Positions 39,701-64,000 are shown, counted from the first letter of the stretch. The stretch: DNA of 64,000 bases from Azolla caroliniana (GCA_043228905.1 JBHGNT010000007.1:7006001-7070000), one strand, 5' to 3'. Notes: a model not told the origin generated them from the letters alone. A program made the numbers and translations.

Positions 39701-41605
39701 ATGCAACATCCAAAAAGACAAGAGTGAATTTAATACGCAATCAAGGTATTCACCTCTTGTGCATACGACACAAATCACATATTAAATACATAGAAATTGA
39801 GGTATTGACCTCATACGCACACATAACATATGTATGTGAATGTAATACGCAATTGAGGTATTGCCCTCATACGCATACGACACAAATCACATATCAATTA
39901 TATGTCAATTGAGGTACACATATGATTGATAGAAAAAAGATTAAGAAAGGAATACTGAAGTCCGTTTGTTGATGCCTTTATGGATCAATCTCAACTACAC
40001 ATCGATCGATCGCCATCCAACAAAAAAAACATTAGAAAATACACTCTAATACCAATTGTTAAAGCTATATCCTAATGTAAGCATATGATAAGGATATAAG
40101 AGATAGATAGAAAAGAAAGGAGAGAGAAAGAATGGTGTCGATCCACCCGACCAGCCCCCAAGCGAAGGGATCGAGACGGACTCGAGCCTCGATTGGTGTC
40201 CCATACCACCGTCGTGGTGTCGAGTTGTACCTGGTACTGGCGCACTCGCTACAAGAGTTTGATCACCATGAGTTTAGAGTCTCGACGTAGTCAAAAGATG
40301 TCAAATAAGGGTAGCTAGGCCTCATATTTATAACCAGACCTAAGGCCCCATGCAAGTTCACACTTGACCTTAATGGGTTGTCTCAATCCCAAGTATTAAA
40401 AGTAATCATTCCCTTCTTTACACTCTTGTTTAACCCTCACATTTTATCCACATGTATGGAATACTACGGTACAATCTTACCATGGGATATTATATGGTCA
40501 TGCCCATAACATATGTGTACAATTTTCCCCATTCCGCAAAGAATATGGTTTCGTAATTAATTGCAACTTATGTAGTATAATGTGTGAAGCGTGAAACTCC
40601 ACATTTTTCCCACGTCATGAAGCATTGGCATTGCAAAAAGGCATCATTTATAGAGGAATCTAATGATGCATCATGAAGCAAGTGTGTTGCATCTCATCTA
40701 CCAAACCATTTTTCCATATCTTACATCCAATGGAACACAAAATTTTGCTTTTATGCATCTTTTCGATCTTTTTGCTTGTTTCCCATGCAATTCTAGGAAG
40801 TCAATGCGAGGGACTTTTTTGAACCTTAAGCATTTATCCAAATCTTTCCGTGGCCATGATCCCCATTATTTAGAGAGAGAGAGTCCATTATTTAGAGATC
40901 GTGTTATCTAGATATTATTGTTTGCTTTAATTGATAATATAGCTAAAACCATGCCATTGAGGTTAAGTTTTAATATGGACAAGCTCGTACTATCTAAAGC
41001 ACTAGGAAATTTTGGTTGATACTAAATGTCTAACCAAATATGAGAACAAAGGTAATGTGTGTAGCCTCTTAAGCAACCCTACTAGTGTCAATATCTCAGC
41101 CTATTTGAGATAAACTTTGATATAGGGTGTAATCTTGTGTAAATAATTTGTTTACCAGAAGACTTAGGGCTGGTCTAATCAAAGGGATTCAAAAATTGTC
41201 TTTGCTACAACAATTATGGACAAAGAAATACTTTGAATGTTTGGCTAGCTCACTAAAGTACACCTTATGTAAGAAATATTCTGAGTTACACAGGATTTGG
41301 GTTTCATAAAGTTGTCCTTGTAGTGGAAGGCACTTAGGACGGTTAACTTTGCTAAAAATTGGAGTTGCATAGCAATGGTTGCCCAAAGATTCTACCTCTT
41401 AAAATATACGTGTGTAGGAACTCAATCTTAGATAGAGATAATATACTATTTTGTAACAAAACCTTGATATGTACCCCGGAAAAACGAGGATTACAACTTC
41501 ATGCGTGCATGTTGTCAATAGTGGCACGACCTCTTAGATGTTTGTGATCAATTATGATTCAATATACATTCGACATGTTTGAGATTGTTCGGGTGACCAC
41601 AAGAG

Positions 41606-44600: not shown

Positions 44601-47052
44601 CAAGATTGGACAGCAAAGTCCAACATCAACAGAATGTTCTGGACCATCAAAAAGCTCAGATGGTAAATCTGATTCAAATTCTTGGAGTGGAAAAAGTGGA
44701 GGACACAAAAAATGTGATGATAAAAAAGGAAAACAGAAAATGCCAGAGTATGAAATCCCGGATGATCTATCAAAAAACATGGAAGATGAAGATTCAGATA
44801 TGTCTTTGGATGATTTCCTTGGAATACAGGAAATGAAAATCCCTGGTATGGAAAAGGCAATAAAGAATGCAAATCAGAAACTGAGAAGATCAGATAGAGA
44901 GAAAAAGACTGTGGAAAGATTTGGGTATGATACATACATGGCTATGCATTATGCATACATGTCTAAGGTGGTACAGATCCCTGATCCAAACAGCTTCGAA
45001 GAAGCAAAATCTGAGAAGAAATGGATGGATGCAATGCAAGAAGAGATTGATGCATTGGCTGAGAACAAAACGTGGGATTTAGTGAAGTTACCAAAAGAGA
45101 AAAATGTGGTAGGCTGCAAATGGGTCTACAAGACAAAGCATGACTCCAATGGGAATGTAAGTAGACATAAAGCAAGATTGGTTGCAAAAGGATATGCTCA
45201 GATGCAAGGGATTGATTATGATGAGACTTTTGCACCGGTTGCAAAGATGGCAACCTTGAGAACACTACTTGTTGTAGGAGCAGCCAGAAAATGGATTTTG
45301 CATCACATGGATGTAAAAAATGCTTTTTTACATGGTAACTTGGAAGAAGAAGTGTATATGAGTCAACCACCAGGTTTTGAAGATAAGAAACAACCTGATT
45401 ATGTATGTAAGCTGAAAAAAGCTCTCTATGGACTGAAACAGGCACCAAGAGCATGGCACAGAGAACTTTCAGATTCTCTGAAAAATCTTGGTTTCAAAAT
45501 GTCAAAAGCTGATCCTTCTTTGTATGTAAAAAGTGAAAATGATTGCATTGTTATTATTCTGATTTATGTGGATGATTTGATTATTGGAGGAGATTCCGTG
45601 GATGAAATAAGAAAGTTGAAAAAAAATCTGGAAATGCAGTTTCATATGAAAGATTTGGGAGATCTGAGATATTTTCTTGGTATTGAAATCATCAGATCTG
45701 AAAGTGGTATATGTATGTTGCAAAAACAGTATGCAACAACTATGTTGAAAAAGTATGGTATGCTTGGATGCAAACCTATTGCTGTACCACTTGATAAAAA
45801 CTGCAAGTTGAGGGCTGATTTGGGAGCCAAGATAGAAGATGTAAACATGTACAGGTCTATGGTGGGCAGCCTTATTTATTTGACTATAACAAGACCTGAT
45901 TTGAGCTATGCTGTTGGATTAGTCAGCCAGTTTATGCAACAGCCAACAAAGCCACATTTGGACTGCATCAGAAGGATTCTGAGGTATGTAAAAGCAACTC
46001 AGAACTTTGGACTATTTTACAGGGCTGATCTAGACATAAATCTGGAAGGATATACAGATGCTGATTGGGCTGGAAGCCAAACAGACAGGAGATCCACAAG
46101 TGGATACATGTTTACCCTGGGAAGTGCAGGAATTTCATGGAGTAGCAAGAAACAGGCTACTGTTGCATTGTCCAGTACAGAAGCTGAGTATAGAGGGGCT
46201 GCAATAGCCACATGTGAAGAAGTATGGATCAGAAGACTGCTTGCTGATCTGGGAGTATATATAGATGGTGCTGTCACAATCTGGTGTGACAATATGAGCA
46301 GCATTCAGCTTGCAAAGAACCCAGTGTTCCATGCAAGAACAAAGCACATTGAGGTGCATTATCACTTTGTTAGAGAAAAAGTGATGGAAGGTGAAGTTGA
46401 TCTGGTGTATGTGAATACAAGCCAGCAGGTTGCTGATATTCTCACAAAGGGATTGAGTGTGGAAAAGCATACACAGTTTCGGAACATGATGGGAGTTGTA
46501 AACATTGATGAGATGGCTAAAAAGCAAAATGGAAAAGAAGATTGAAGAGAACCTCAAGCAAGAATAAGTTGAGCTTGAGGGGGAGTGTTGAGAAGCAAGC
46601 TCAACATGGTATGTGATGCTTATGAGAAATAAGCTATAGTAGCTATTTAGCTACTAGTGAACAAAAAGGTAAAACAGCTATTTAGCTAGTGACAGCTAAT
46701 TAGCTAGTGAACAGCTATTTAGCGACTGACAGCTAATTAGCTACTGGCAGCTAATTAGCTGCATGTGTAATAACTTATGACTTAGGTAAAAGTAAGTGAG
46801 AGTGAATAGGAAGTAAGTAGTAAGGAAAAAACAGAGAATAGTGAGTAGAGAACTCTGAGAGAGAGTGAGAGACCAGAAGACTGACGAGAGCAAGTTGAGC
46901 TCTACATGTAATAGAAGAAAACCATTTTGCTACTACAGAGGTAAGTCCCCTTTCCTTTCTCTGTCTGTTTAGAGCACGCTAACGATCCAGCACACTACGA
47001 TCCGCCGCGCACATAAGAAGAGCCCGAGTGCCTTCTTCACGTTTTCTTAACA
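41606..47052 (+). mobile_element. Intact, very recent Ty1/copia LTR retrotransposon (5447 bp)
   Basis: LTRs 41606-42072 and 46586-47052 (467 bp; one mismatch, 41734 A vs 46714 G). TSD AAGAG. PBS TGGTATCAGAGC at 42073-42084; PPT ttgagggggag at 46575-46585. Single uninterrupted ORF. Confidence 0.98.
42217..46545 (+). CDS. Copia Gag-Pol polyprotein (1442 aa): Gag/CCHC, protease, integrase, RT, RNase H
   Basis: CWYCGKPGHTQAEC; WYVDSGASNHM; WHKRIGH...CEACQYGK; HTDVWGP, RSDGGGEY, QNGVAERKNR; ARLVAKG, MDVKNAFLHG, YVDD; YTDADWAG, SSTEAEY, RTKHIEVHYHF. Confidence 0.98.
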   Translation: MAAENVGQMVTEKLDKNNFPAWKFRMTNFLMGKGYWDYIEGDLEEAPEIPEENATAAHIKAFKDWNQGARKVMHWLSLSISDSMLGHIQDAMLPKEAWDNLVKLFAVNTKARKLQLKTELNTLEKGKMSINEYALKIKSICESLASINVKIEDDDKVEICLRGLGPQYKSFKTSMLTRDSIPSFSDLVSMLVVEERNQMDDANKGNSENEGQALYNNAGRGRGRGHGRFGSGRTNNNGFQGRGQQAHRGGNNNRGRGSNRGRGKQTYVNDDGCWYCGKPGHTQAECYKKQNDEKRGKGQQSNYASTSEDCEKEGVFVVQHEIAAVAESSQKCNEEFTWYVDSGASNHMTGHANWFESLREPKVPGYVQTGDDTTHQIKHVGDIPLWEERGKTKYMLNVMHVPNLAKNLISVGQIVEQGMQVKFKQSGCYIEKNGKLIAKGKRQGRMFILDVEMPKHISAMFANGTSVISDVEMWHKRIGHISMQTLKNMLRKDAVAGLPNLKKCEMGKVCEACQYGKQNRLPFPHERHVSKNLLDLVHTDVWGPTKNASIGGCRFYVTFIDDCSRKTWVYFMKEKSEVFDCFRKFKCMVEKQAGTRIKCLRSDGGGEYFSNEFSDFLCNQGIRRQFTCRYTPQQNGVAERKNRTLVNIARAMMTEKNMPLYYWAEAVNTANYILNRCITSGVHEATPEECFYGRKPSLQHLKVFGCLAYVHVPAEVRSKLDPKAEKCIFVGYSEEQKGYRCYNPVTKKIVTSRDVIFDELASWYSPKQNPETDEDNEIEDKDKSENVEDCHRDGSKIGQQSPTSTECSGPSKSSDGKSDSNSWSGKSGGHKKCDDKKGKQKMPEYEIPDDLSKNMEDEDSDMSLDDFLGIQEMKIPGMEKAIKNANQKLRRSDREKKTVERFGYDTYMAMHYAYMSKVVQIPDPNSFEEAKSEKKWMDAMQEEIDALAENKTWDLVKLPKEKNVVGCKWVYKTKHDSNGNVSRHKARLVAKGYAQMQGIDYDETFAPVAKMATLRTLLVVGAARKWILHHMDVKNAFLHGNLEEEVYMSQPPGFEDKKQPDYVCKLKKALYGLKQAPRAWHRELSDSLKNLGFKMSKADPSLYVKSENDCIVIILIYVDDLIIGGDSVDEIRKLKKNLEMQFHMKDLGDLRYFLGIEIIRSESGICMLQKQYATTMLKKYGMLGCKPIAVPLDKNCKLRADLGAKIEDVNMYRSMVGSLIYLTITRPDLSYAVGLVSQFMQQPTKPHLDCIRRILRYVKATQNFGLFYRADLDINLEGYTDADWAGSQTDRRSTSGYMFTLGSAGISWSSKKQATVALSSTEAEYRGAAIATCEEVWIRRLLADLGVYIDGAVTIWCDNMSSIQLAKNPVFHARTKHIEVHYHFVREKVMEGEVDLVYVNTSQQVADILTKGLSVEKHTQFRNMMGVVNIDEMAKKQNGKED

Positions 47053-48698
47053 AAGAGAAGTGCATATAATAGAGCGATTTTCTACCAAATGGAAACCATG
47101 TTTCATATACCTCTTATATATTATCAAATTTGGGAACCTTTATCTACTTTGCCTATTCTTGCACATTATTCTAAAATTGGTGGCAAATGAGCAATGTAAA
47201 GACTGATTATTAATAACCAAAATTCAATCCTCACGACAAAGACTAATGATGTTTATGATAAGTTGATTGAAGATGGAGCTTCATTATGTTGGCATAAAAG
47301 GCCAACTCCTTCCACTTTGTATCCGTACTAGTGTGAACACGTCCAATAGTGAGGGCTTCAGTATATAAGCCCTAACCTAACGTTGTAATATGTGTTGCTT
47401 GATCATCTTGTATCTTGAGTCTCTGAGTGAGAGAAAAACAGAGAATAACGAGAATCACCATTGAAGCTTAACTTCTTGTCTATCTACTCCTTTAGCTACA
47501 TATGTGTGTAAGGTGTTTGTTGTGCATAACCGACAGGTTCTCAAATGTTCTTCCGCGCATATCTGCTCACAAGTGGTATCAAAGCGAACCTGCTACTCGG
47601 CAACAACAAAACAACAAAGACAAGTTAGATGCAATTCGACACAACGAAAAACCCGTTATGATGTCAGCTGAAGAGCGGAGATAATTAGACGAAATTGCAC
47701 GCTCCACCATCCGAATGCATTTGGCCGAGAATGTCTACTTCAGTATGGCCAAGGAGACGACAACCTTCTCATTATGGGAGAAGTTGCAAGTAGTGTACGA
47801 AAAGAAGTCCTCCTCGCCGAAACTCATATTGATTCGACAACTATTCAATATGAAGATAAGAGAGTCAGATCCTGAAACCTCCCACATCAACACCTTCAAT
47901 CGGGTGTTGTCTGAACTATCCTCCCAAGGGATTAACTTCGAAGAAGAAATGAAAGCCCTTGCCCTCTTGTCGAGCTTGCCAACGAATTGGGAGGTATTCT
48001 ACACGACATTTGCCAACAACTGTTGTCGTGAAGAAAACCGTCCCCAGGCGCAAACCGTGTATAGCATGCATGAACCGGCCCTTACACGTGGGCACGCCCC
48101 TTGTTGTATAGTAGATAGGTAGGCACAAAAGTCGAATCCTAGGTAGCAATATTCTATAGGGAGAATCGAAGAGTATCTCTCTCCGAAAGGACATAGAATT
48201 AACGTGATGTAAACGGGTCAACGACCTCCCTCCTTGAGCTATAAAAGAGAGGGAGACGGGGAGAGCAGGGGGGGCGCTTGAGAGGACGAAGTGTTGTCGG
48301 ACTGGGACTCCATAGCTTTCTTTTGCGCAGGTTCTCGAGAGGCTGATTCTGCTCCGTGGAACACCCGTGTGCTTCCGGTAGAATCTCCATCTTGCTCCCT
48401 TGTGTGCGTGGGTGATCAGGCGTCGGCATTCATCTCGTCGACATGATCGGCTGTAACCGTTTGAGTCGTCTGCATACATATATTTATATACATACACTAG
48501 TGTTCTTATACTGTATCTCCTGCTCCACTCGTGTCTCCTGTGTTGTTGGGCCGCGTTCCCGTGCGCTTCTTTGTCTATACGTGTGTGAGCGTGTCTCTCT
48601 CTCTCTCTCTCTCCCTTTTCTCACCTATTCCTCGGTCCAAGACCCAGGTGGTCCCGCCTTGTTCTGCACGCACGCGTGTAACAACGCAACATCTCTTT

Positions 48699-48716
48699 TG
48701 GTGAACCCGACGTGAA
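48699..48716 (+). promoter_or_regulatory. Primer-binding site complementary to tRNA-Trp 3' end
   Basis: Reverse complement TTCACGTCGGGTTCACCA matches the 3' end of plant cytosolic tRNA-Trp(CCA), from memory. An identical site lies at 53932-53949 on the minus strand. Confidence 0.8.
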
Positions 48717-51085
48717 CAGGCGGCAGAGGAGTAGAAGATGAGGGGGTCGGACCTCGCAGAAACCATGGCTTCGGCTGTGGACCGTATAGTGAGTGCGCGC
48801 GAAGGCACCAACGCCCTTGATAGGGCTATCGAGGCGGTTGTCGGTACGATTGACCGGTTTAGTGGGAAGGATGCCACGAACTACTTGGCGTCCTACCGGG
48901 CTGAGATGGTAATGAGGGACATTCCGGAAGAGAGGCGTCTAGCCGGATTCCCTCGAGTGGCGATGCCGGGCATCCATACGGAGGTGCTCGAGGTACGGGC
49001 CGAGAGCCGGACCTGGGAGGAGTTCGAAGGTCGGCTCCTTGAAAAATACGGGCTTGAAGACGCGCTTCGACTTTCGAAGCGGGACTTCATGGAGTGGGTG
49101 GAGACCCCTGACACAGGAAGGAACGCGTCGGTGCTCCTCCGGGAGTTTGAGGAACGCTTCGCGCGCCTCTCGGTGCTTGACCGGACCATTCTGGACACAA
49201 GTCGTGTCCTATTGTCTGTTAAGTCAGTTGACGAGCGGGATCGGGAGCAAGTAGGCCTCCTATTGGAGACTGATGACGGGCTAACGGCCGACTGGGCTGT
49301 GGTGAAGAGGGTTTGTGGCCGTTTTGACAAACGACGGGAATGGGTTGACAAAGGATCGACAGGGGCGGGCTCTGTCGCAGCAAGGAAGCTCGAGCCAACA
49401 CCACCAACGCGAAGGGAAGAGACCCGAGATTGGCTCGAGACCGGATCGGCTTCGACCGGCATGGTCAAGGGCTCGAACGGGGGAGCAGCTCTGGAGGAAC
49501 AGACACAGATGGTAAAGGATCTCCAGATCGCCCAGGCACGGAGGGATGGTGGCGAACAAGCCCGTGACCGACGACCTCTGGCTGGAAGCAGGTGCATGTG
49601 GTGTGACGCGGTTGGCCACATCCGGAAGGACTGCGGGGACTTCGCCGAGGTGTTGAGAAGCAACGTGGTGTACCTGTGGAACGGTCGGGTGCACGCCAGT
49701 GAGACTCGAAGGGCCTTGGACTTGAACGTCGGGCGAGGAGGTATGGAAAGGCTAATGGAGGAGGCAGCGGCTCGTCACGCGGAGACCATCCACTACTCGA
49801 CGTCAGCTGGTATTCAGGCCGGAGGTGGGGAGGCCCCGAAGACGAACAAAGCCGGGTTCTGGCCGACGATGCTAGAAGGCCTCGCCGACGCACGACTAAG
49901 GAAAGAAGAGGCGGACCGTTGTCGCGTTGTTATGCGCGTGCGTGGAGAAAGGCGGGACCACGGGGGTCTTGGACTAGGGAGTGACGGAGCGTAGGAAGTC
50001 GCGCTTCACCGTTTCCGGGGGATCCCAGAAGAACACCGGAAGCTACCGAAGGGAGAGAGAGAGAGAGAGGGAGCGCGCGCTTAACACCGACTCACGCACA
50101 CACACGCACACACACACACACATGCCGACCCTACTCACGCCCTTATGTACAAGAAACGCAGGAAAGGGGAAGCACCCGACACCAACAAAGATGCGAATAT
50201 ACACAGACAGATGCAACGTATATATATATATATATATATATATAAAAGGAAGAATACATTCCCGGCGTCGAGCCGGACCAAGGTAGGTTACAGTAGTCGT
50301 CAGCTGCCAAGCCGCCGGTCGGGGAGCTCACGGGCTCGTTGCGCCGAGCGGGGTCTTGCGCAGGAGATGAGCAGAAGCAAACCCTAAACAAACACGAAGG
50401 GGGAGAAGAAGAAGAAGAAGAAGAAGAAGAAGAAGAAGAAGAAGAAGAAGAAGAAACTAACTCTAAACCTAACGGTATACCCTCTAATGCAAAATGGGCA
50501 ACCCTTTCACAAAGGGCGTTCCCTTCCTTTTATAGAACAAGGAGAGGGATGCGTTACAATGTGGGATAAATCCCGACTTACATATTCTTCGACGCCATAA
50601 AGGCGCCCTCGATATTCACACTAAATGTACATGGGTGCGTACACACACTGCAACCCTCCGATGTAGCCAATGTTTCTCGGTTTCTGCCTCTGGCCGAAAT
50701 TCTTCACGACATCCGCCCCCACCTAACTGCACGTCCACCGGTACGTGCCAAATATGGTTGAAGGGTGAGAGATTTCGGCCGGTGAGAAATCGGTCTCCCG
50801 TGATCCGCATCTCGGCTCGCTGCCGGTTCGATCCGTCGGCTTCGAGTCTTCCTTCGCGCTTGCCTCCCCGTAGGCTCGTTCGACCCGTTGATGGGCCCTC
50901 TGCCGCGATCTTCGTAGTACGCGTACTTCCGTTGGCCCTTGTTCGGCCGTATGAACGCCCCGCTTCCCGCCGTAGGCCCGATGTCCTCCGCTTGAGGCAT
51001 GCCCGTAGTGGCCTGCTTGGCCTCCGTTGATCATTCGCGTCGTCCTGATTCCCGTCCCTTGTCGTTTCGCGTTGCCCTCGTCCTC

Positions 51086-52205
51086 TCGCCGCCACCTTCC
51101 TTCTCCATGGTCTTACATCGCTGCGTCGGCTCGAACCGCCATGGTCTCCGGAACGGTGTGGAGGATCCCTTTCCGACCTGATCGTGCATCGCCGCCCACC
51201 CGCATACCGGCGTCCTTTGCATCCAAGGAACACCCCGTAGCAGCCCGCTTGGCCCTTCCCGTCTTCATGCTGCTGAAGTAGGTCCTGAGACTTCCGCTTG
51301 CTGTCGTCCCCTCACCCCCACCAGTTTGTCACCCCGGGCTTGCCGTGTCAGTCTTCGCTACTTCGACGGAGCTCCCAAGATCTACGACGCGAGTGTGGAG
51401 GATCCTCCTCCGGCCTCTCTTGCCATCCCTTGACTTCGACCTTGTGCAGTCCACTAGGCACTTGTCACCTTGTTCCCGGCACCTCCCTTGTGCCGTCTTC
51501 TGCTTCCTTCGTTCGGCCCCGCCCGCGCCGAACACCGTCCCGTAGTCACGCTTCGATCCAGCCCGCAATGGCCACTTGCGAGACCCTTGTTCTGTCCCAG
51601 GAGTGCCTTTCCGGCCTGACACACCTCCCCGTGTTTGCCCCTACCGGCTCCTTCCGAAACCTCGTATCGTCGAGTCCCGTTCCCTGCCGCCACCGTCCTT
51701 CTCCATCGGTCTTACGTTGCCGCGTTGGCCGATCAGCCGAGGTCTCCGGATCGGATTGAGGGTCCCATAGGACCGGACTCCGTTTCTATGCTTGCCGAAA
51801 TTCGGGTGTCTTCTGTTTGAGTCCCTCCCGGACTCTCCTCGTGTCTTCCGCATAGTCTGGTCCCGTTTCCCGTCGCCACCTTCCTTCTCCCTCGGTCTTA
51901 CGTTGCCACGTTGGCCGAACAACCGGAGTCTCCGGTTAAGTGTGGGGATCCCGTAGGACCGGACTTCCTTACGCCCATTGCCTTCGTCACCTCGCCGCCA
52001 CCGTCAGTATCTTGGTCTTACGTCGACCGCGTTGCCGACTGCCGAAGTCTCTAGAACCGGTGTGAAGGATCCTCCGTAGGCCTCCAATTTGTAGCCCTTG
52101 CCTTCGTCACCTCGCCGCCACCGTCAGTATCTTGGTCTTACGTCGACCGCGTTGCCGACTACCGAAGTCTCTAGAACCGGTGTGAAGGATCCTCCGTAGG
52201 CCTCC
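51086..52205. repeat. Five-copy internal repeat in the gag-only element (last two copies a near-perfect 120-bp tandem)
   Basis: cgccacc.tc...ggtcttac.t.g...cgt.g...gtctc recurs at ~51090, 51688, 51874, 51996 and 52116. Confidence 0.8.
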
Positions 52206-53305
52206 GATTCATATTCCCGACCCTGTCCGGGGTCGTCCCTTTCCACATGCTGAGAGGGCGGTTTACTCCGCACCCTCTCCCGTGTTACCGTCGTACCGTG
52301 TCCTCGGCCTCTTCGTAGGCCTGCTGCTCTCTTCCTCCCTCCCAGAATGGTCATCCGGGAGTTCGCTCCGCCCGGTTCTCGCTCGGGTCCGTTCGTCCTT
52401 CCATCTCTCGACCTTCGCCCGATCGGTCTTTCTCCCCATGTAAAAGAGGGCGGCTCGTCCCGCACCCTCTTCCGTTTTGGCACTTTCATGTCGAATCTGG
52501 CCCCGATCGAACAATCCACGATCGGATCACGCTCCACCCGTATCGGAATACCGATTTCCTCGTGCCGCTTCCGTCCTCGGCCTCCTCGCAGGCAGTTTCC
52601 CATCCGACTTCGCTGGCATCGTGCCAGGACTCCTCGGTACCGTCATCCATCTCCTCGGTCTTGCATGGGCATACGGGCCTGAATGCCGAGTTCTCCGGAA
52701 TTGGGTCCGCGGGCTTTCGTTCGCTCCTTCCCCGTATCGTCTCGTCGGTGATTCTTGGCCTTTCGCCGCCGCCTTCCTCTGCTTGGGACTCACGTGGGCA
52801 CTCGGGCCCGACTGCCATCGTCTCGGGAGCAAGTGTGGGAAGACACAAAGAATCGCCCGTCCGATTTACGCCCTTGTCCGTAGCCACCGGCTCTCCGTGG
52901 TCGGCGGTCGTCTTCTTACCGATAGCGCAAGCCCCGTCCGGGCTTGCTTCTCCAATGACCGGGATCTCGGGCTGACACGCCCGAAACCGCTGGTCCCAAC
53001 GTTCCGGTTCCGCGATCGGTATCTCGGCCTCGTCCTTGGCCGTTCTATCTCTGCAAGTCGAGAGGGCGTTTTGTTCCGCACCCTCTCCCGTGGTACCGAT
53101 CTTCCGTCGTCGCGTGGGGCAAGTCCGTCTCCTCAGTCTTGGCTTGCGGCCTTGATCTTTCCTCTTCCTCGAGCATCGCCTCGAGAGCTGCGTACGCCTC
53201 CGCAATCCTGGCCCCAACACCGATCCTTGCCAACTCCCTTTTCCATTCGGCTTCTTCCCGCTGTGATGGCACGCCGTCGCGCCCCTTCCTCTTAGCCTTC
53301 TCGGC

Positions 53306-53887
53306 TCACTCGTTGTCTAGCCGTTGGCACACCCTTCCGACCTTCGACCAGTCCTCCGTAAGCCCATTCGCCCCGTCATCATCTTCGAGCTCAATCCCGA
53401 TGGCCTCCTGTTCCGCTCGGTCGATCGACCTGACGAACAATAGGACCTTGTCCGCCCCCACCAAACCTTGTTCCCGCTCCGGGAGCCGAGCAAGCCATCG
53501 CTCGAACTCTCGGAACGCCTTCGTCGCGCCCCGGTGGGTCTTTGCCGATGCTACCCATTGGTCGAAATCATGTCGTCCCTGGCTCTTCCGCCGTCCTCTG
53601 TATGCCTTCAGGAGCGCCTCCTCGAAGGCCTCCCACAAACCATGAGCCTCACGGAGCTCCTTTACTTCCGCATGCATCCGGACAACTACGACCCAACAGA
53701 AGAACTCCAACCTTAACGCCTCGTCTACGCCACACTCCTCCATTTCCGCGTTGTAGGCTTCCAAGTAAGATGGGACTTTGTCCCTGTTGAAACGGCCGAC
53801 TCTTTCGACCACTCGCTCAACCGCTTGTTGCGCTGCTTCTCGCCTTATCACCACTCGTGCTGACTCCAACACCACTTCGGCCACCAT
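53306..53887 (-). CDS. Gag capsid-like N-terminal ORF of the gag-only element (continues past a stop into an acidic low-complexity tail)
   Basis: Aligns by eye to the middle element's Gag. RFNRDKVPSYLEAYNAEM vs RFSGKDATNYLASYRAEM; VLLFVRSIDRAEQEAIGIELEDDDGANGLTEDWSKVGRVCQRLD vs VLLSVKSVDERDREQVGLLLETDDGLTADWAVVKRVCGRFD. Confidence 0.75.
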   Translation of the reverse strand: MVAEVVLESARVVIRREAAQQAVERVVERVGRFNRDKVPSYLEAYNAEMEECGVDEALRLEFFCWVVVVRMHAEVKELREAHGLWEAFEEALLKAYRGRRKSQGRHDFDQWVASAKTHRGATKAFREFERWLARLPEREQGLVGADKVLLFVRSIDRAEQEAIGIELEDDDGANGLTEDWSKVGRVCQRLDNE

Positions 53888-54253
53888 CTCCGCAAGGTCG
53901 TCGTCTTCGACTCCATCCTCCCTTGCCGCCTTTCACGTCGGGTTCACCAAAGATGTCGCGTTGTTACGCGCGTGCGTGGAGAAAGGCGGGACCACGGGGG
54001 TCTTGGACTAGGGAGTGACGGAGCGTAGGAAGTCGCGCTTCACCGTTTCCGGGGGATCCTAGAAGAACACCGAAAGCTACCGAAGGGAGAGAGAGAGAGA
54101 GAGGGAGCGCGCGCTTAACACCGACTCACACACACACACGCACACACACACACACACATGCCGACCCTACTCACGCCCTTATGTACAGGAAATGCAAGAA
54201 AGGGGAAGCACCCGACACCAACAGAGACGCGAATATACACAGATAGACGCAAC

Positions 54254-54294
<41 letters not shown>

Positions 54295-55685
54295 GAAGAA
54301 TACATTCCCGGCGTCGAGCCGGACCAAGGTAGGTTACAGTAGTCGTCAGCTGCCAAGCCGCCGGTCGGGGAGCTCACGGGCTCGTTGCGCCGAGCGGGGT
54401 CTTGCGCAGGAGATGAGCAGAAGCAAACCCTAAACAAACACAAAGGGGGAGAAGAAGAAGAAGAAGAAGAAGAAGAAGAAGAAGAAACTAACTCTAAACC
54501 TAACGGTATACCCTCTAATGCAAAATGGGCAACCCTTTCACAAAGGGCGTTCCCTTCCTTTTATAGAACAAGGAGAGGGATGCGTTACAATGTGTGATAA
54601 ATCCCGACTTACATATTCTTCGACGCCATAAAGGCGCCCTCGATATTCACACTAAATGTACATGGGTGCGTACACACACTGCAACCCGCCGATGTAGCCA
54701 ATGTTTCTCGGTTTCCGCCTCTGGCCGAAATTCTTCATGACACCGCGCGGAAAAACGAGTCTGGGAGGTAACCGGGTGGAGTGACCCGGTGGAAGAAAAG
54801 ACGGGCTTTGTCGAAGCCGCTTGTCAAAACTACGAGGCTCTGGTGGAGGACAAGCGGGTAGAAAAAACCGGAGGGGCCGAACCCTCGCAACGATATGAAA
54901 CTTGATTCAGGCAAAGGCGGAATGAGGCCGGTGTAACCGGCGCCCAGGATAATCCCAAGAAGGGCGGGTACTAGCTGGGCACAGAAATCGAAAGATCCAT
55001 GGACCTGCGAAAGGTCCTGGAAGAACGAATCCTTGACAGCAAGGTGGAACTGTCGCTGAGGGAAGTGCTCGGGATCGCTAAGAAGGAGTTCCACGACTCC
55101 ATCGTAGACTTGGTGAAGAGGAAGAGGCTGTCGACGGAGTCAGAACCGGAGAAGCCGGTGGAGGTGTGGACGACGCACATAGAGGACATGGCGTTGGAAG
55201 ACGAGTTGGCAGAGAGCCACTATTCGCGGCCGCACTGGGCCAGAGCGACCACGGAGACCTCCGTGAAGATCGGAGATGTTCATGAACCGGTGGTGGCGTT
55301 GGTGGACCACGGTTCAGAAATCAATTTGATGTCCATGGACTTCTACAAGAAGGGGAAATGACCGATCAACACCAAGCACGGGTGGACAACGGGCAGCGAC
55401 GCGTGCCACCGAAGAACTGCATGGAGCCTGCCCGAATGTACGAGTAAAGATCGGCGATGTCGAGATTGACCAGCACTTCTTCGTGCAGGAGACGTCCTCA
55501 CATCCGGTTATACTAGGAGAACCGTACATCACGGCAGCACGGATGGAGACCAAGGTGTTGGACAACAGCTCGGCCTATGCAAGGGTCAAGAGCCAAGATG
55601 GGCGTCACTTGGTCCAGTTCCTGACGGTGAGACCGAACCATGAGCGGAACCGCGAGACCCTCGGGGGCGAAAGCTGAGAGGATTT

Positions 55686-58600
55686 TTAGAGAGGGCTATC
55701 AAGGCGTGGGGCTACGATAGTCTGGACACTCCGGGAAAACCCCACAAGTGTACGATAGCGAAGAAGACCTGTACTATAAGTAGGAAATTTTGGTTCTCTG
55801 ACAACGGAGGGTGTACGATAGTCGACATCGTTGGCTGGAAGAAGAAAAGGGCGGAGGAGCGACTTCGGGCATGTGGTATCCTCGGCCTTGGAGAGGAAAT
55901 CAACGGAGCCGTGGAGGCGGTCTCTTTCGACGATACCTTGGGGGAGCTGCGAGAGGTAGTCGGAGGAGTCCTTAAAGAGGACCGGACGATTCCGGTATGT
56001 TCGGAAAGGATGTACGAAGTCATCGCGGACTTCAGTAGAGGGCTCGAGTCGGATCGGACAGCCCGGGTGGACACGAGGTACAAGACTGTGGACCGGAAGG
56101 TGAGGCCAGTCGCGGCTCCCTTGTCGGAGGGCAGCGAGTTGCGAATAAAGGGGGTTGCGTCGGACCCGAGTTTACAAAATCTGGCACGCATAAGACACAC
56201 GTTCACCGACATAACGCTACGTGAGCTCAAAATCGGTGGGGGCGGCTTCCTACTGCTGGCGGAAGAGGACCGGTTTCGGGGAATGCTCGGAAGGCACGGG
56301 AAGGCTTTCGCATTCTCACTGGAGGGGATCGGGTGCATAGACCCGACAGTCGTGGAACCGATGGTGATATTCATGGTGCTGCATGTGCCGTGGAGTCTCA
56401 AACCGATTCCAGTACCCAGAGCTCACATCCCGAAGTTGATGGAGCTGTTAAAGCGGAAGGTCGAGATGGGCATCCTCGAACCGTCGAGTGCCCCATACTT
56501 GAATCGGTGGTTTACTGTGCCAAAGAAGAACAGCACGCTGCGCTTTATTCAAGACCTGTAGCCGGTCAACAAGGTGACCATTTGAAACGCAGGAATCAGA
56601 CCGACAATAGACGAGTTCGCGGAGGCCTTCGCCGGAAGGTCGATTTACTCGGTCAGTGATCTCTACTCGGGGTACGATCAGTTCCAGCTAGCCATAGAGA
56701 GCAGAGACATCATGACAATGCGAACTCCTCTCGGTCTAGTACGGATGTGTACCCTACCGCAAGGAGGGACGAACTCGGTGGCTCACATGGTGAACGCAAT
56801 GAACAAGGTGCTGAGGGATTGTATCCTGGACATCACCATGTCGTTTTTGGACGACGTCCCGATCAAGGGATGCTCGGTGGAGGAAAAGGACGAGACGATT
56901 GGACCGGACGGGTGCCGGAAATTCGTGGCGACGCACATCGATGACTGCGAGAAGGTGCTGTAGAGGTTAGAGGGCGCGAGGCTCACCTTCTCCAGGGAAA
57001 AATCGACCTTCGGGCAATCAGAGATCATGGTCGTCGGACACCTATGCGAGTCGTACGGCCGGAAACCGTCTCCTGCTAAGGTAGAGGCCATCTCCGCGAT
57101 GAAGCATGACTGTAGCTCGGTCACGGAGGTTCAGAGGTTCTTGGGAGCATGTGCGTTCTACCACATATGGATCCCGCATTACGCCCACGTCGCGGAGCCG
57201 TTATACGGGTTGCTGAAAAAGGGGCGAAAATTCGAGCGGAGAGACGAGCATACAGAGTCTGTCCGAAAGATGAAGGAAGCACTTGCCGCAACTCCGGCAC
57301 TCCGAAAGGCTATCTACGGAAAGGACACTCCAATTTACGTAACGGTAGACACGAGTCCGACTGGGATTGGATGGGTCGTCAACCAAGAGGACGAAGACGG
57401 CATGCATTTCCTGATCCGGTTCGGCGCGAAGGTCCTCAGTGAGCGACAACGAGGATACGCCCAGGTTAAACGCGAGCTCTAGGGTATCGTTTCGGCGGTA
57501 AAGGCAGATAAAGACTACCTGATCGGGACAGAGGTAATTATCGAGATGGACTGCCTGCCAATTCTTGGCATGGTTTCCGGATGCGCGACGCCGAACCTGG
57601 CAATGCTCAGGTGGATAGCATACATCAAGTCCTTGAATCCGGAAATACGACACATTTCTGGGAAAGACAATGCCATGGCCGACATGCTTTCAAGGGTGAG
57701 GTTCAAAAACGAGGGCGGCATGGTTTCGGAGGACGAGGAAGTCGGCATGGACTTCTTCGAGGCGGCTTACGTAACAACCGGCAGGGAATGCACTTCAATG
57801 CTTAACGATTTCGACGAGAGCAAGTACAACGGGGAGTGGCTGCAGATCGGCGGGTTCCTGAAAACAATGACACCGGACGCGGCATGGACAAAGGATGAGG
57901 CCAACCGGATTCGGAAGAAAGCGTACTGATTCTTTCTCCGAGACGGGTACATATGGAAGCACCCGAAGAAGAGGAACGACATCCCACTCCGAGTGGTGGC
58001 GAAGAAGGAGGAACAGGAGGATTTGCTGGCGGCGTACCACGATAATCCTTGGGCTGGACACCGTGGAACATGGGCCATGTTCGAAAAGCTAAAGGGGAAG
58101 TACTGGTGGCCGGGACTATACCGGGACGTGCATCGGTTCGTGACGACTTGCGAAAGCTGTCAAGTGCACTCCATGATCCGACACTGGGACGAGCTTCACC
58201 CGACCTATCCTCCGACCGTCCACTTCAAGTGGATGGTGGATTTGGCGACGATGCCAATGGGGGTAGGATAAATGCGGTATCTGGTGCTGGCTCGGGAGGA
58301 TCTAACGAACCAGGTTGAAGGCCGAGCCCTGCAGAACAAGACGACTGCAGCCGTGTGCTGGTTTTTGATTGAGGACGTGGTATGTCAATATGGGTGCGTA
58401 GGGAAGATCGTGGCTGACCGTGGTGAGTTGGACGCAGAAGAGGCCGAAGAGCTGTTCGACAAGCTAGGAGTCAAACTTTCGCTCACCACAACGTACAATC
58501 CGGAGGCAAACGGGAAGGTAGAGTGTGGACATGGGCCGATTGTCAAAGCGCTAGTACGGGCGTGCGGAGGCCAAGTCGGGAACTGGCCACGACTGCTACC

Positions 58601-59138
58601 TTATGCCTTGTGGGCGGACCGGACTACGCACAGTTCGATAACCGGGTTCATGCCGGCAGAGCTTATGTTCGGACAGAAGCCGATCATGCCAACAGAGCGA
58701 ACGATCTCCTTGTGGGCCACGGTGGACTGGAGGGATGAGATGAGCCAGGAGGAATTGTTGGCGGCGCGGATTCGACAGCTCAAGCGGAGGCTGGAGGACG
58801 TAGAGCGAGCCGCGGAGAAACTTCGAGTAGCGAGGATAAGGAACAAAGCCCGATTCGACCGAACACACCGGCTTCGGCCAAGGAAGATCGAGGAAGGCGA
58901 CTGGGTGCTAGTCTACAATAGCAGCCTCGACAATCAGCACAAGGCCACGCGGAAGTTTGCGAGGAGGTGGTTCGGGCCTTACGTAGTAACAGGCGCCAAC
59001 GACAATGGGACGTACCATCTCGTGGAGCTCGACGGTACGAGAATGGTGATACTGATAGCGGGGAAGAGGATCAAAGCATTCAAGAAACGACACGATGGTG
59101 AGCCGGAGCTAGGAGGCATGGACAACAACGACGAGTAG
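55686..59138 (+). pseudogene. RT-RNase H-integrase ORF of the Trp-primed gypsy, in the -1 frame relative to gag-PR, several stops
   Basis: The frame is open 55686-56558 and continues in ORF pieces at 56712, 57027, 57546, 57993 and 58272-59138, broken by single stops. Confidence 0.85.
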
Positions 59139-62100
59139 CCCGAGGCGGAGGACGAACCGGTAAACGAGGAATAAAAGCAAGGACCGGTTTTCTCCAGTAG
59201 GAACCCAATTCTGGCGCATACCGGTGGATGCGCGGTTAGGTGGGGGCGGATGTCGTGAAGAAAACCGTCCCCAAGCGCAAACCGTGTATAGCGTGCGTGA
59301 ACTGGCCCTTTCACGTGGGCACGCCCCTTGTTGTATAGTAGATAGGTAGGCACAAAAGTCGAATCCTAGGTAGCAATATTCTATAGGGAGAATCGAGGAG
59401 TATCTCTCTCCGAAAGGACAGAGAATTAATGTGATGTAAACGGGTCAACGGCCTCCCTCCTTGAGCTATAAAAGAGAGGGAGACGGGGAGAGCAGGGGGG
59501 GCGCTTGAGAGGACGAAGTGTTGTCGGACTGGGACCGAGCTCTTCTTCTCTGTCGTTCTCCATAGCTTTCTTTTGCGCAGGTTCTCGAGAGGCTGATCCT
59601 GCTCCGTGGAACGCCTGTGTGCGTCCGGTAGAATCTCCATCTTGCTCCCTTGTGTGCGTGGGTGATCAGGCGTCGATATCCATCTCGCTGACCTGATCGG
59701 CTGTAACCGTTCGAGTCGTCTGCATACATATATTTATATACATACACTAGTGTTCTTATACTCTATCTCCTGTGTTGTTGGGCCGCATTCCCGTGTGCTT
59801 CTTTGTCTATACGTGTGTGAGCGTGTCTCTCTCTCTCTCTCTTTTCTCACCTATTCCTCGGTCCAAGACCCCGGTGGTCCTACCTTGTTCTCCACGCACG
59901 CGCGTAACAACGCGACACCGTTCGATCCTAAATTTAGATGAGATGATCGGCCAAGTCCTCACTGAGGATATTCGGCAAAAATCAATGGGACTCACCATCG
60001 ACGAATATGCAGAAGCCCACCACTTGATTAAGTTGATCAACTGACCGAGTAAATCGAAAGAACAAATTGACAGAATTGGTTGACATAATAGTCAATCGAA
60101 AACAAGGGGAGACTGACAATGGTCGAAGTCGAGAACCAATCGACTAGGCGACTTTTGCACCACTTCAAAAAACTTGGTCATAATTTTTTTGATTGTTGGT
60201 CGATCAAGAGGAAAGAGAGTAGTCGGTGATCTGAGCGGAATTGAGGACGGTCTAACTTGAACCACTCTCTAGTCGGCAACCAAGTCAATGTTGCCGACAC
60301 CCGATCGGGAGAAATTTTCTCCTTGTAGGACTCAATGATCGACGAAGTCCTCTACAATGCACAAGATGCACATACGTGGTTGTTGGACTCTGATGCGACA
60401 TTTCACGTAACCCCAAACATCGAATGGTTTTCTAACTATTCAGTTGAAGCCAACGACATAGTTCGACTAGGCAATGTGCAGGAGTGCAAACTTGCAGGAA
60501 TTGGTGAAGTACCAATTCAATTGTCAAATGGCAACACGATAGTCCTACACAAAGTTCAACATGTACCCGCATTGAAAAAAGAGTCTGGTCTCCATTGGCA
60601 TGTTAGCCAAAGACGGGTACAGAATGACTCTGAGTGAGTCGACATGGATGATCAACCGTGGAAACCTGAAGATAGGAAGTGGGCACAAGTACAACAACTT
60701 GTACCTAATGATGGTGATCAATCTAGAAGGGGTTGTGAACGTAGCTGAAAAGACTGACCCGAACCTATGGCATGGCCGACTCAGCCATATGTCTCAAGCC
60801 GGCCTATATCGGCTAATGGCGGTTGGCTACATTCCTAAACTCCAAGCAAAGACGGACTTATGCGAGCATTGTGGATATGGGAAATAGACCCGAAGTCCGC
60901 ACTCTCTCCATTACGAAATGGTACGATAACCCCTAGAGCTCGTGCACATATATATTTGTGGGCTTATGTCTAAGAGATCACTAGGAGGCTCCTGGTACTT
61001 CATCACATTTGTAGATAATTGTACACGGAAAGTTTGGGCCTATTCGATTAGGTCGAAAGATGAAGCGCTCGAGGTCTTCACTCGGTGGATAACTGAAGTG
61101 GAGAACCGGTCATGATACAGAGTGAAGACACTCCGATCTGACAATGGAGGAGAATACACCTCCTGAGCCTTCAAACAGTACTTGTCTGACAAAGGGATCC
61201 GGAATCAAAAGATTGTTCCATACACACCCATGCAAAATGGAGTGGCTGAACAAATCAACAAAAAAATCCAATAGAGTGATGACAATGCTCCAATAAGTTG
61301 GACTGAAGTTGGATTTCTGGGCCGAAGCATTGCAGACGGAAGTATATTTGATCAACCTGTCACCGTCGAAAGCAATCAGGCTCGAAGTGCCATAGGCAAT
61401 ATGGTCAGGAAAACGACCGACCTACGATAGGCTTCGTATATTCGGATGTGAAGCCTACACATTCATCCCCAGGGAGAAAAGGACCAAGTTGGCACCCCAT
61501 GCAACAAAATGCATATTTCTCGGTTATGGAACCGATGGGGAATTCAGTTACAGGCTATGGGACCCAGAGAATTGGAAATTGATTAAGAGTAGTGACATAG
61601 TCTTCAATGAAGACTCTATTCGCTCTGCGAGGAAAAAACAGAAGATAGTTGGTAAGAAGGTCTCCTTCAAAGTCAATAGAGACATCGTAGAAAGACCGAC
61701 CCACCGGGCCGAATCAGAGATTCGACAAACAGTTGAACTCGACCAAGCCAACAACACACTCACTGGCTCCAAATCGGTAGGAGGTTCACTAATCGAACAC
61801 AAAGACAAGGACATCAAAGACAAAGCAAAATCGACAAGAGTTGAAAAAGGTAAAGTCAACAAGGTGTGACCCAACAACAACAAAGTCGACTCGGCTGACA
61901 AACAAGCCAAGGGCCAAAGCCGAAAGGAGTCAGCTAAGACTCCTACCTTCAAGTCACTCGATCTCAAAGCAGGAGAGGATGACATGACATCAATGATCTC
62001 CTATTACAAGGGCGAGTCATCCGAAAGGACTCCTGACATAAGTGATTCAACAAATGTCGGTCGGCTGAAAGAGACAATCGAAGGATCCGAACTGATCATT

Positions 62101-62168
62101 ATGACAGTTAGAAGATCTGGACAAAATCGAAGGCCGATAGAGTTCTATCAACCGGGCTTGACTACGTC

Positions 62169-62187
62169 AACCCTAAACCCTAAACCC
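62169..62187 (+). repeat. Short interstitial telomeric sequence (CCCTAAA)2.5 at a deletion junction
   Basis: aaccctaaaccctaaaccc sits between PGLDYV and GVDYDEIFSPVVK of the old copia. Confidence 0.75.
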
Positions 62188-64000
62188 ACATGGAGTCGAC
62201 TATGACGAGATATTTTCTCCAGTAGTCAAGATGACCACCCCTCGACTCCTACTCGAGGTCGTGGCGACAGAAGACCTATAGTTGGAGGAACTAGACGTCA
62301 AGACGACTTTCCTACACGGAGATCTGGAAGAAGACATTTACATGTCTCAATCGGTAGGCTTCACGGTGACAGTGGAAGAAAGTAACCTCGTATGTCGTTT
62401 GAAGAAAAGCCTTTATGGCTTAAAACAAGCACCGAGGATGTGGTACCAGAAGTTTGGCTCCTACATCCAACAGCTCGGCTACAACTGGTCTGACTTCGAC
62501 CCATGCCTATATACTAGCAACTGATCGACGAGTCCCAGATCTATTTGATCCTATACGTCGACAACATGCTAATTGCATGGAGTAATCAAGTTGAGATCGG
62601 AAAGCTAAAGCAGAGTCTTCATGACAAGTTTGCGATGAAAGAACTTGGACAAACCCGACATATACTAGGCATACGATAGAGCGAAATCAGAAGACAAAGA
62701 CTCTTCAACTCTCCCAGTCTGACTACATCCGAAAGATGCTGAGACGCTTCAACATGGGAAATTCCAAGCCAACACTTTCTCCTTTGACGGACAAGGAGAA
62801 AGAGCTTAATGGAAAGATACCCTACGCATCGGCCGTAGAAAGTATCATGTACGCGATGCTAGCGACTAGACCCGACCTTGCCTATGTCGTAGGGGTCGTC
62901 AGATGGTACATGTCAAACCCAGGATGAAAGCATTGGGAGGTCGTCAAGCACATCTTCAAGTACCTCAGAGGGACCGAAGATGCACAATTGACTTTCAGAT
63001 CGGCAAACCTGACCGAAGTCAAAGGCTACACCGACTCCAATTACGCCGGGAATTCGGACAATCAGAAGTTGACATCATGCTATGTTTTCACCTATGGCAC
63101 CAACGCTATATCATGGAGGTTGAAGCTTCAAGAGTGCATGGCCTTGTCGACCATAGAGGCCAAGTACATAACATCATCAGAGGCAACGAAGGAAGCAATA
63201 TGGTTGTACCGACTGTCAACCGACTTCTTAGCAACAAGTCGAATTGACCATCTAGCGTCGACCATCTACTACGACTCACAAAGTGCAATACACCTCATCA
63301 ATAATTATGTCTATCATGCGAAGACAAAGCATATTGAGGTGCGATATCATCATATCGGAGAACTTGTAACCGAGAAGAAGCTCGAAGTCTAGAAGATCGA
63401 CACCGAGGTGAACATTGTCAATTGCCTGACAAAGTCACTCCCAAATCAATGTGTCGGAGCATTTAGGACAAAGATGGGACTATGACAAGAGATCAAGTAG
63501 AAGAAAGACGAATAAGGAGCATAAGGTAAGTCGAAGATCTTACCGATTCAAAGAGCCGAACCGGATGACTAGCCGAATCAGGCTAGATACCAACTTTATC
63601 TCTGCGGACTCGGCTATGTGCCGAACGACTTGTAACCATAATTTTAGATTGAAATTGTAATCTAGGTTTACGAGGGAGATAACCCCATACAATTGCAATT
63701 AGAATGCGCAGTTCTTTTACGGGGGAGTTTGTTGACATAAAAGGTTGACTCCTTCCACCTTGTATCCTTACTAGTGTGAACAGGTCCAATAGTTAGGGCT
63801 TGAGTATATAAGCCCAAACCTAACTTTGTAATACATGTTGCTTGATCATCTTGTATCATGAGTCTCCGAGTGAGAGAAACACGGAGAATAATGAGGATCA
63901 CCATTGAAGCTTAACTTCATGTCTATCTATTCTTTTAGCTACATATCCGTGTAAGTTGTTTGTTGTGCATAACTGATAGGTCCTCAAATGTTCTTCCACG

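What the first reader, a model, noticed from the sequence alone, without database searches (positions are those of the whole stretch)
59214..59233. Co-varying pre-PPT hairpin with a palindromic ACCGGT loop, shared by helper and gag-only element
Seen: the middle element has GCGCAT-accggtgg-ATGCGC (59214-59233). The inner element has GCACGT-accggtgg-ACGTGC (50729-50748, minus strand). Four substitutions form two fully compensatory pairs, the loop is invariant, and both hairpins sit the same distance before the identical PPT. Established: self-complementary hexamer loops drive kissing-loop dimerisation in retroviruses (HIV-1 DIS). Inference: a 3'-located dimerisation/packaging signal that could let the parasite RNA heterodimerise with helper RNA, or a plus-strand priming structure. 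Caveat: the changes are at CpG-type sites.
Basis: partly seen in the sequence, partly recalled or inferred. Interest (0 to 1): 0.72.

Follow-up and report, generated by a model that had tools for sequence, protein, structure and literature searches.

The report
Conserved hairpin beside retrotransposon second-strand primer
A family of plant jumping genes and its parasites keep a small hairpin at a fixed distance before the site where their second DNA strand starts, and it likely helps define that start rather than pairing two RNA genomes together.

Summary
The hairpin is real and the CpG-decay caveat fails, but the kissing-loop reading is weak. Both elements are Phygy-type Ty3/gypsy retrotransposons (4-bp NCGN target duplications, Trp-type PBS). 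In 72 dereplicated relatives picked only by PPT and LTR start, the stem is 96% paired (0 of 500 shuffles as high). There are three lineage-fixed stem states, but only two independent compensatory events. Two distant elements found by integrase alone (57-60% identity) keep the hairpin (19/22 nt) better than the PPT (9/15). They root both compensations as CpG gains, not decay. The loop is not invariant: ACCGGTGG occurs in 40 of 72, position 1 is A/G/T, and the distant loop is ACCGGAGG. What is conserved is N-CCGG-W-GG, predicted to close partly on itself. The stem ends 17-19 nt before the LTR, while the linker upstream takes indels. In this clade a longer helix also pairs the 3'UTR with the U3 start and co-varies (swap test p≤5e-5 in non-autonomous families; no effect within autonomous ones). 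Best reading: a cis element likely acting in plus-strand priming (0.4). Rivals are a Gag zinc-knuckle binding site (0.25) and dimerisation (0.12). No function was tested.

The parts
59214..59233 (+). Pre-PPT hairpin of the middle (pol-bearing) element, state GCGCAT/ATGCGC, apex ACCGGTGG
59234..59250 (+). Spacer plus PPT, 17 nt from stem end to LTR start
59181..59197 (+). Left arm of predicted long helix P1 (3'UTR motif); also holds a second ACCGGT (59183) predicted to pair with the hairpin's palindrome in an alternative fold
59256..59270 (+). Right arm of P1 (start of U3); in plus-strand RNA it can instead pair with the PPT
59251..59917 (+). 3' LTR of middle element, followed by TSD CCGT (59918-59921)
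48024..48691 (+). 5' LTR of middle element, preceded by TSD CTGT (48020-48023); 29 mismatches in 644 aligned positions against the 3' LTR
48699..48716 (+). PBS of middle element (tRNA-Trp type; the match to Trp is recalled, Phygy = 81% tRNA-Trp)
48738..49915 (+). gag of middle element with one CCHC zinc knuckle (about 49593-49634), interrupted by the inner element
54747..59138 (+). Broken gag-pol remainder: RT, RNase H and integrase fragments
50729..50748 (-). Pre-PPT hairpin of the inner (pol-less) element, state GCACGT/ACGTGC
50712..50728 (-). Spacer plus PPT of inner element, 17 nt
50765..50793 (-). Left arm of P1 in the inner element (9 perfect pairs GGCCGAAAT/ATTTCGGCC plus outer helices)
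50677..50707 (-). Right arm of P1 in the inner element (U3 start)
49920..50711 (-). 3' LTR of inner element; TSD ACGG at 49916-49919 (minus strand)
53954..54742 (-). 5' LTR of inner element; TSD GCGG at 54743-54746 (minus strand); 16 mismatches in 777 aligned positions against the 3' LTR
53932..53949 (-). PBS of inner element, same core as the middle element
53306..53932 (-). Truncated gag (208 aa, 39% identical to the middle gag over 200 aa, no CCHC); no pol similarity anywhere in the inner element

Best explanation
This is a conserved, co-varying hairpin that Phygy-type retrotransposons and their pol-less derivatives keep 17-19 nt before the 3' LTR, and it likely works in plus-strand priming by fixing the upstream boundary of the PPT primer. 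Shown: its conservation, the compensations, the fixed spacing and the variable outer loop bases. Inferred mechanism: reverse transcriptase copying the RNA would meet the stem just after the PPT and pause or be positioned there. After RNase H nicking, the same hairpin would refold in the minus-strand DNA and strip off the RNA 5' of the PPT. In this clade the P1 helix (3'UTR with the U3 start) would do the same on the other side, leaving a PPT RNA/DNA hybrid bracketed by two helices. The conserved N-CCGG-W-GG apex is predicted to be a protein contact (RT or Gag) rather than a dimer seed. Pol-less elements would keep the hairpin because any RNA copied by helper RT needs it in cis.
For: Stem 96.3% paired in 60 distinct rows, shuffled mean 93.3%, 0 of 500 as high; slid controls 13-61%. 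Spacing is 17 nt in 57 and 18 nt in 12 of 69 scored copies, and 18 and 19 nt in L122/L123, while the linker upstream of the hairpin carries many indels (alignment A2). It is conserved better than the PPT in a distant lineage found by protein only: 19/22 against 9/15. In minus-strand DNA, P1 has probability over 0.5 in 28 of 35 autonomous and 33 of 37 non-autonomous copies, against 12 of 35 and 33 of 37 in plus RNA; mean hairpin probability is 0.71-0.75 in DNA. Sequences directly upstream of the PPT matter for plus-strand priming in retroviruses and Ty1 (PMC10085805, passages). Confidence that it is a selected structured cis element of some kind: about 0.85.
Against: No functional data. Only two independent lineage-level compensations exist in the hairpin (tree; outgroup); the pair-count measure was reached by 29 of 500 shuffles and the pair-type measure by 233 of 500. 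A polymerase-to-RNase H ruler is not supported by the nearest studied enzyme: Ty3 RT spacing is about 13 bp (PMC5371799, passages). PMC3616985 argues RNA structure at a PPT is unlikely to modulate priming (passages). In the middle element's 125-nt context the plus-RNA fold loses the hairpin to an alternative pairing. P1 is not seen in L122/L123 (z 0.0 and 0.7), and RNAalifold recovers it in neither class. Most loci come from one series of assemblies, so they are not independent hosts.
Confidence: 0.4

Rival explanations
1. The hairpin is a Gag zinc-knuckle binding site (3' packaging or chaperone-loading signal). The helper's CCHC knuckle would bind the exposed guanines of the GGUG/GGAG apex, and knuckle-less parasites would keep it to enter helper particles.
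For: The only tolerated change in the 3' loop is GGUG to GGAG, and HIV-1 NC binds GGAG- or GGUG-containing loops (PMC3759924, passages). The middle gag has a CCHC and the inner element has none. Ty3 UTRs are needed for packaging (PMC11381356, passages). Sequence conservation beyond what pairing needs suggests a protein contact.
Against: A packaging signal does not need fixed spacing to the PPT, yet spacing is 17-19 nt. In the MFE the last G of GGNG is paired. GG-rich loops are common.
Confidence: 0.25
2. The hairpin is a kissing-loop dimer initiation site. The CCGG core would pair between two RNAs and allow helper-parasite heterodimers.
For: CCGG is kept at 69-72 of 74 per position. Opening the loop costs only about 1.5 kcal/mol, and unconstrained loop-loop duplexes give -9.7 (ACCGGU) and -10.3 (GCCGGU). 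The Ty3 dimer site is a palindrome in a hairpin apex, and Ty1 uses kissing loops (PMC5454406, abstract).
Against: The outer pair does not co-vary: TCCGG in 11 and GCCGG in 7 of 72, with A at position 6 on A, G and T backgrounds. Distant elements are ACCGGA (-7.1), TCCGGT gives -6.3, and CC is 88-91% paired in the window hairpins. The extended MID+INN heterodimer gains only about 2 kcal/mol against about 10 for homodimers. The Ty1 and Ty3 sites are at the 5' end, and Ty3 3' RNA did not dimerise without tRNA.
Confidence: 0.12
3. The hairpin is an RNA-level signal of another kind (nuclear export, stability or termination next to the pol stop), the apex of a 3' rod comparable to retroviral transport elements (comparison recalled, not tested).
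For: In non-autonomous families the hairpin caps a roughly 110-nt rod whose arms co-vary: cognate -25.1 against foreign -21.5 kcal/mol, p≤5e-5; p=0.0014 at n=10 after dereplication.
Against: The rod is absent in L122/L123, there is no cognate advantage within autonomous copies (p=0.95), and A-C outnumbers G-U about 2:1 in P1.
Confidence: 0.13
4. The pairing is not selected. Inverted repeats are homogenised by fold-back templated mutation during reverse transcription, and the sequence is conserved only by common descent.
For: Only two lineage-level events. L047 shows a chance 'compensation' from two CpG decays.
Against: Conservation exceeds that of the PPT across 57-60% integrase identity. Bulges and mismatches persist in P1. 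Adjacent 3'UTR and LTR sequence diverges freely.
Confidence: 0.08

Closest known systems
Phygy lineage of non-chromovirus Ty3/gypsy LTR retrotransposons (Neumann et al. 2019, PMC6317226)
   Same: 4-bp NCGN TSD, Trp-type PBS, no chromodomain hit, compact pol running almost to the PPT; named integrase relatives are from Riccia and Ceratopteris.
   Different: No pre-PPT hairpin or non-autonomous derivative appears in the passages and table row read. No RT tree against REXdb was possible.
T-box/U-box upstream of the PPT (SIV, MLV, CaMV, Ty1; TCTT of Tf1-type elements)
   Same: A conserved cis sequence immediately 5' of the PPT, tied to plus-strand priming.
   Different: Those are short pyrimidine runs. 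This is a 20-nt hairpin with compensatory changes, plus a clade-specific long helix.
HIV-1 DIS, Ty3 DS/PAL6, Ty1 SL1a-SL3a kissing loops
   Same: A palindrome in a hairpin apex.
   Different: 3' rather than 5' location; the hexamer palindrome is not conserved; the apex is predicted to be partly self-paired. DIS features are recalled.
HIV-1 psi SL2/SL3 (GGUG/GGAG loops bound by NC)
   Same: The apex alternates between GGUG and GGAG, and the helper Gag has a CCHC.
   Different: 3' location, a single knuckle, and GGNG is not the predicted tetraloop; no binding data.
TR-GAG non-autonomous elements (Chaparro et al. 2015, PMC4350172)
   Same: LTRs, PBS, PPT, a gag-only ORF, no pol.
   Different: The inner element is 4.8 kb (TR-GAG under 4 kb), gypsy-derived, with a 4-bp TSD and a truncated gag lacking the knuckle. 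The paper found no significant leader structure in TR-GAG1.

Membership tests
Phygy Ty3/gypsy | 4-bp NCGN target site duplication | tested here: met
   CTGT/CCGT and GCGG/ACGG in the window, each with one mismatch; NCGN follows the LTR end in the related loci not followed by a PBS; definition
Phygy Ty3/gypsy | tRNA-Trp PBS | tested here: inconclusive
   PBS TGGTGAACCCGACGTGAA present in both elements; the match to tRNA-Trp is recalled, as no tool gave the tRNA
Phygy Ty3/gypsy | RT-RNase H-integrase order, no chromodomain, no extra ORF before the PPT | tested here: met
   Pfam hits in that order, none for a chromodomain; integrase match ends about 100 nt before the PPT
Phygy Ty3/gypsy | RT/RH/INT phylogeny with reference Phygy elements | not testable with these tools
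   No REXdb sequences held
Kissing-loop dimer initiation site (DIS type) | Conserved or co-varying self-complementary hexamer | tested here: not met
   40 of 72 ACCGGTGG; TCCGGT family; ACCGGA in distant elements
Kissing-loop dimer initiation site (DIS type) | Palindrome exposed in the loop | tested here: inconclusive
   CC 88-91% paired by prediction, but the open form is only about 1.5 kcal/mol higher
Kissing-loop dimer initiation site (DIS type) | Location in the 5' leader or gag start | tested here: not met
   Directly before the 3' PPT; Ty3 and Ty1 sites are 5'
Kissing-loop dimer initiation site (DIS type) | RNA dimers in vitro, lost in loop mutants | not testable with these tools
   Bench test
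NC-binding psi hairpin (SL2/SL3 type) | GGNG at a hairpin apex | tested here: met
   GGUG or GGAG in the family-level states; tetraloop register not the MFE
NC-binding psi hairpin (SL2/SL3 type) | Specific binding by the CCHC knuckle; needed for packaging | not testable with these tools
   Bench test
PPT-upstream priming element (T-box type) | Fixed position abutting the PPT | tested here: met
   17-19 nt from stem end to LTR
PPT-upstream priming element (T-box type) | T-rich run directly 5' of the PPT | tested here: not met
   Only TT/TTT within the tract; the element is a GC-rich hairpin
TR-GAG | gag only, no pol | tested here: met
   0 of 33 N-class loci with at least 300 nt upstream have integrase there
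TR-GAG | Under 4 kb, 5-bp TSD | tested here: not met
   4823 nt, 4-bp TSD
Any Rfam family | Covariance-model match | tested here: not met
   0 matches at E≤1 in 48000-60000

The most novel reading that the evidence does not exclude
Phygy retrotransposons define their plus-strand primer by folding of the minus-strand cDNA. A lineage-wide hairpin on one side and a co-varying 3'UTR-U3 helix on the other bracket the PPT hybrid, so the primer is chosen by template structure and a purine-poor PPT (GGTGGGGGCGGA) suffices; parasitic elements have extended this scaffold to about 110 nt.
Probability: 0.2. Interest if true: 0.75.

Novelty: new variant of a known kind. Interest (0 to 1): 0.52.

Why it matters
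How LTR retroelements pick exactly one plus-strand primer, and which cis signals parasites must keep to use helper proteins, are open questions in plants. A 20-nt hairpin that outlasts the PPT sequence across distant Phygy lineages, with natural compensatory variants in hand, gives a small target that can be mutated directly, and a diagnostic motif for finding pol-less Phygy derivatives. The 3' kissing-loop heterodimer idea, which would have been the more striking claim, is weakened by the family data.

Tried and rejected
No host genome is held. Rfam: 0 matches. Loop pairing with the LTR (5'-3' cyclisation): no complement better than shuffles in 16 of 16 complete LTRs, z -0.8 to +2.1; rejected. 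A specific anti-PPT upstream strand: not above shuffles (z<-2 in 6 of 35 and 0 of 37); rejected as a composition effect. Polymerase-RNase H ruler: Ty3 spacing is about 13 bp; not adopted. RNAalifold did not recover P1; register shifts between families may explain this, but it is a negative. One swap-test control was itself weakly significant (upstream region against right arm, N class, p=0.0095, effect 0.9 against 3.6 kcal/mol); the other three were not. No RNA holder was listed, so expression is untested. Viral-contig scans gave only chance matches; L124 was a weak hit and was not used. Earlier findings: none. Pairing of the hairpin with the primer tRNA could not be tested because no tool supplied a plant tRNA-Trp. 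Two primary papers on PPT-upstream elements were not held.

Full report
Observation. Both hairpins are present as described, each ending 17 nt before a 3' LTR. The two elements share a 50-nt block with five differences, four of them forming two compensatory pairs (p about 3e-4 for random placement, post hoc). ViennaRNA does not leave the 8-nt loop open: it bulges the first base, pairs CC with GG and leaves GGU. Stability alone is unremarkable (z -1.8 and -1.7).

Anatomy. The middle element runs 48024-59917 (LTR mismatch 29 of 644), with a PBS, a gag with one CCHC and a pol broken into fragments that hit RT, RNase H and integrase profiles. The inner element (49920-54742, minus strand; LTR mismatch 16 of 777) sits in that gag. 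It has a 208-aa gag 39% identical to the middle one, no knuckle and no pol similarity. Target duplications are 4-bp NCGN, which PMC6317226 gives as the mark of Phygy, with 81% tRNA-Trp PBS (passages and one supplement row). Named integrase relatives are from Riccia and Ceratopteris, so the host is probably a non-seed plant (inference). That the middle family is the helper of the inner one is not shown.

Family sample. 110 loci plus the two window copies passed an LTR-start filter and 10 failed, one of them (L086) a true element with a deleted LTR start. 77 distinct 125-nt domains remained. I dropped 5 whose upstream part looks truncated or replaced (L045, L072, L091, L109, L112; the first four lack the hairpin), leaving 72. 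These split by LTR start into class A (35; integrase upstream in 28 of 30 with at least 300 nt) and class N (37; 0 of 33). A tree of LTR sequence outside the arms (63 of the 72 rows were long enough) separates the classes at 99/99, apart from L065.

The stem. Class A is GCGCAT/ATGCGC in 22 of 35, and all 15 departures are CpG decays. Class N is GCACAT/ATGTGC in 26 of 37 and GCACGT/ACGTGC in 2 of 37; those two, the inner element and L019, form a clade (100/99). Pair counts on 60 distinct rows give 96.3% paired against 93.3% shuffled (0 of 500) and covariation score 0.181 against 0.124 (0 of 500). Only 3 pairs changed on both sides (29 of 500 shuffles reach that), and one of them (L047) is a double CpG decay. 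Relatedness inflates such counts.

Distant relatives. An integrase profile found two contigs, L122 and L123, from one assembly filed as a cyanobacterial genome; they are evidently misbinned retroelement DNA (57-60% identity). Right after the pol stop they carry GCACAT-ACCGGAGG-ATGTGC, then a different PPT and LTR. Identity to the window is 19/22 for the hairpin, 9/15 for the PPT and 13-17/30 for the LTR start (L122). By parsimony this roots GCACAT/ATGTGC as ancestral, so both compensations are A>G plus T>C gains of CpG, opposite to methyl-deamination. This rests on two non-independent outgroup contigs.

The loop. ACCGGTGG occurs in 40 of 72, GCCGG in 7 and TCCGG in 11. Over 74 rows position 1 is A 56, T 11, G 7, and position 6 is T 70, A 4. 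Contigs of four runs (three organism labels) show A>G at 59220 in 9-34% of depth (depth is not copy number). Positions 1 and 6 do not co-vary, so the conserved motif is N-CCGG-W-GG. L042, L097 and L107 change the closing U to A and keep pairing by moving the bulge, which favours the partly closed apex. Loop-loop duplexes run from -10.3 to -3.6 kcal/mol among natural variants, and the extended heterodimer of the two window hairpins gains only about 2 kcal/mol (these calculations do not model kissing geometry). A CCGG-only kiss is not excluded.

Spacing. From stem end to LTR is 17 nt in 57 and 18 nt in 12 of 69 scored copies, and 18-19 nt in the distant pair, whereas the linker upstream varies in length. 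This is the main reason to tie the hairpin to the PPT.

A larger structure. A 3'UTR motif 30-55 nt upstream is complementary to the U3 start. At LTR positions 13-14 the pairs are mostly T-A in class A (28 and 35 of 35) and A-T in class N (36 of 37 each); position 15 is G-C in class A but A-T 19 or G-C 13 in class N (alignment fitted for complementarity). The alignment-free swap test gives -23.7 and -21.6 kcal/mol within classes against -17.9 and -17.0 across them. Within class N, cognate arms beat foreign ones (-25.1 against -21.5, p≤5e-5; p=0.0014 at n=10); within class A there is no effect (p=0.95). One of four controls was weakly positive (p=0.0095). Against it: RNAalifold finds P1 in neither class, and for class A it proposes a rival fold in which an upstream RCCGGT pairs with the hairpin's palindrome and the PPT pairs with U3; that is also the predicted fold of the middle copy. 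L122/L123 lack P1. P1 is predicted more consistently in minus-strand DNA (28 of 35 and 33 of 37) than in plus RNA (12 of 35 and 33 of 37), and A-C exceeds G-U about 2:1 (1.3-1.6 in shuffles). This leans towards the cDNA but does not decide it.

Mechanism. Shown: conservation, compensation, spacing and loop variation. Inferred: a role in generating or bounding the plus-strand primer (0.40), by analogy with PPT-upstream elements (PMC10085805, passages). A simple ruler is not supported (Ty3 about 13 bp; PMC5371799, passages), and PMC3616985 doubts that RNA structure at PPTs affects priming (passages). Rivals: a Gag-knuckle site, since the apex alternates GGUG/GGAG, the loops HIV NC binds (PMC3759924, passages) (0.25); an RNA export or stability signal (0.13); a kissing-loop dimer (0.12; PMC11381356 passages; PMC5454406 abstract); unselected pairing (0.08).

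Novelty. No Rfam match. Full-text searches on PPT stem-loops, Phygy, TR-GAG and Physcomitrella listed no paper whose title or abstract start describes this element. I read only passages of the papers named here and of PMC4350172 and PMC6088434, and the library lacks most subscription journals. No earlier finding of this scan matched.

Verdict. A real, deeply conserved cis hairpin of Phygy-type elements, a new variant among PPT-flanking signals. Interest 0.52.

Noticed in passing
window 59859-59917, 48635-48691, 49920-49975 (-) and 14 related loci: The last ~55 nt of the LTR are conserved across both classes: a GACC-CC(C/G)GT-GGTC hairpin and a terminal hairpin that co-varies (CGCGT/ACGCG; CGAGG/CCTCG in L055 and L070; CGCGA/TCGCG in L014), resembling a U5-IR stem (name recalled). 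The first shares the motif CCSGTGG with the pre-PPT apex.
   Followed up: partly
L004, L024, L055, L070: PPT-LTR-PBS in one run: tandem elements sharing an LTR, or collapsed assemblies.
   Followed up: no
window 38805-39706: Solo LTR related to the inner element's family, flanked by ACGC/ATGC (NCGN with one CpG decay).
   Followed up: partly
L122, L123: Phygy-type retrotransposon contigs filed in a cyanobacterial genome assembly; probable eukaryotic contamination of that bin.
   Followed up: partly
window 51050-52210 (-): The inner element's long non-coding region holds degenerate 120-190-nt repeats (D17, D18), GC-rich and strongly strand-skewed.
   Followed up: no
window 41603-47052 and 47287-48019 / 59922-64000: An apparently intact copia element (1464-aa ORF, LTRs 99.8% identical), and a second copia element whose gag the middle gypsy element interrupts (LTR at 47287 and 63730).
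   Followed up: no
L122:572-609, L123:2013-2050, L104: A lower stem pairs the 5' flank of the hairpin with the first bases of the PPT, using different sequences in each lineage; not significant as a general anti-PPT in the shuffle test.
   Followed up: partly
window 59235-59255: Summed contig depth rises about 50-fold from the family-specific 3'UTR to the hairpin-PPT block in X1 and at least that much in the other three runs, consistent with many families sharing the block (depth is not copy number).
   Followed up: no
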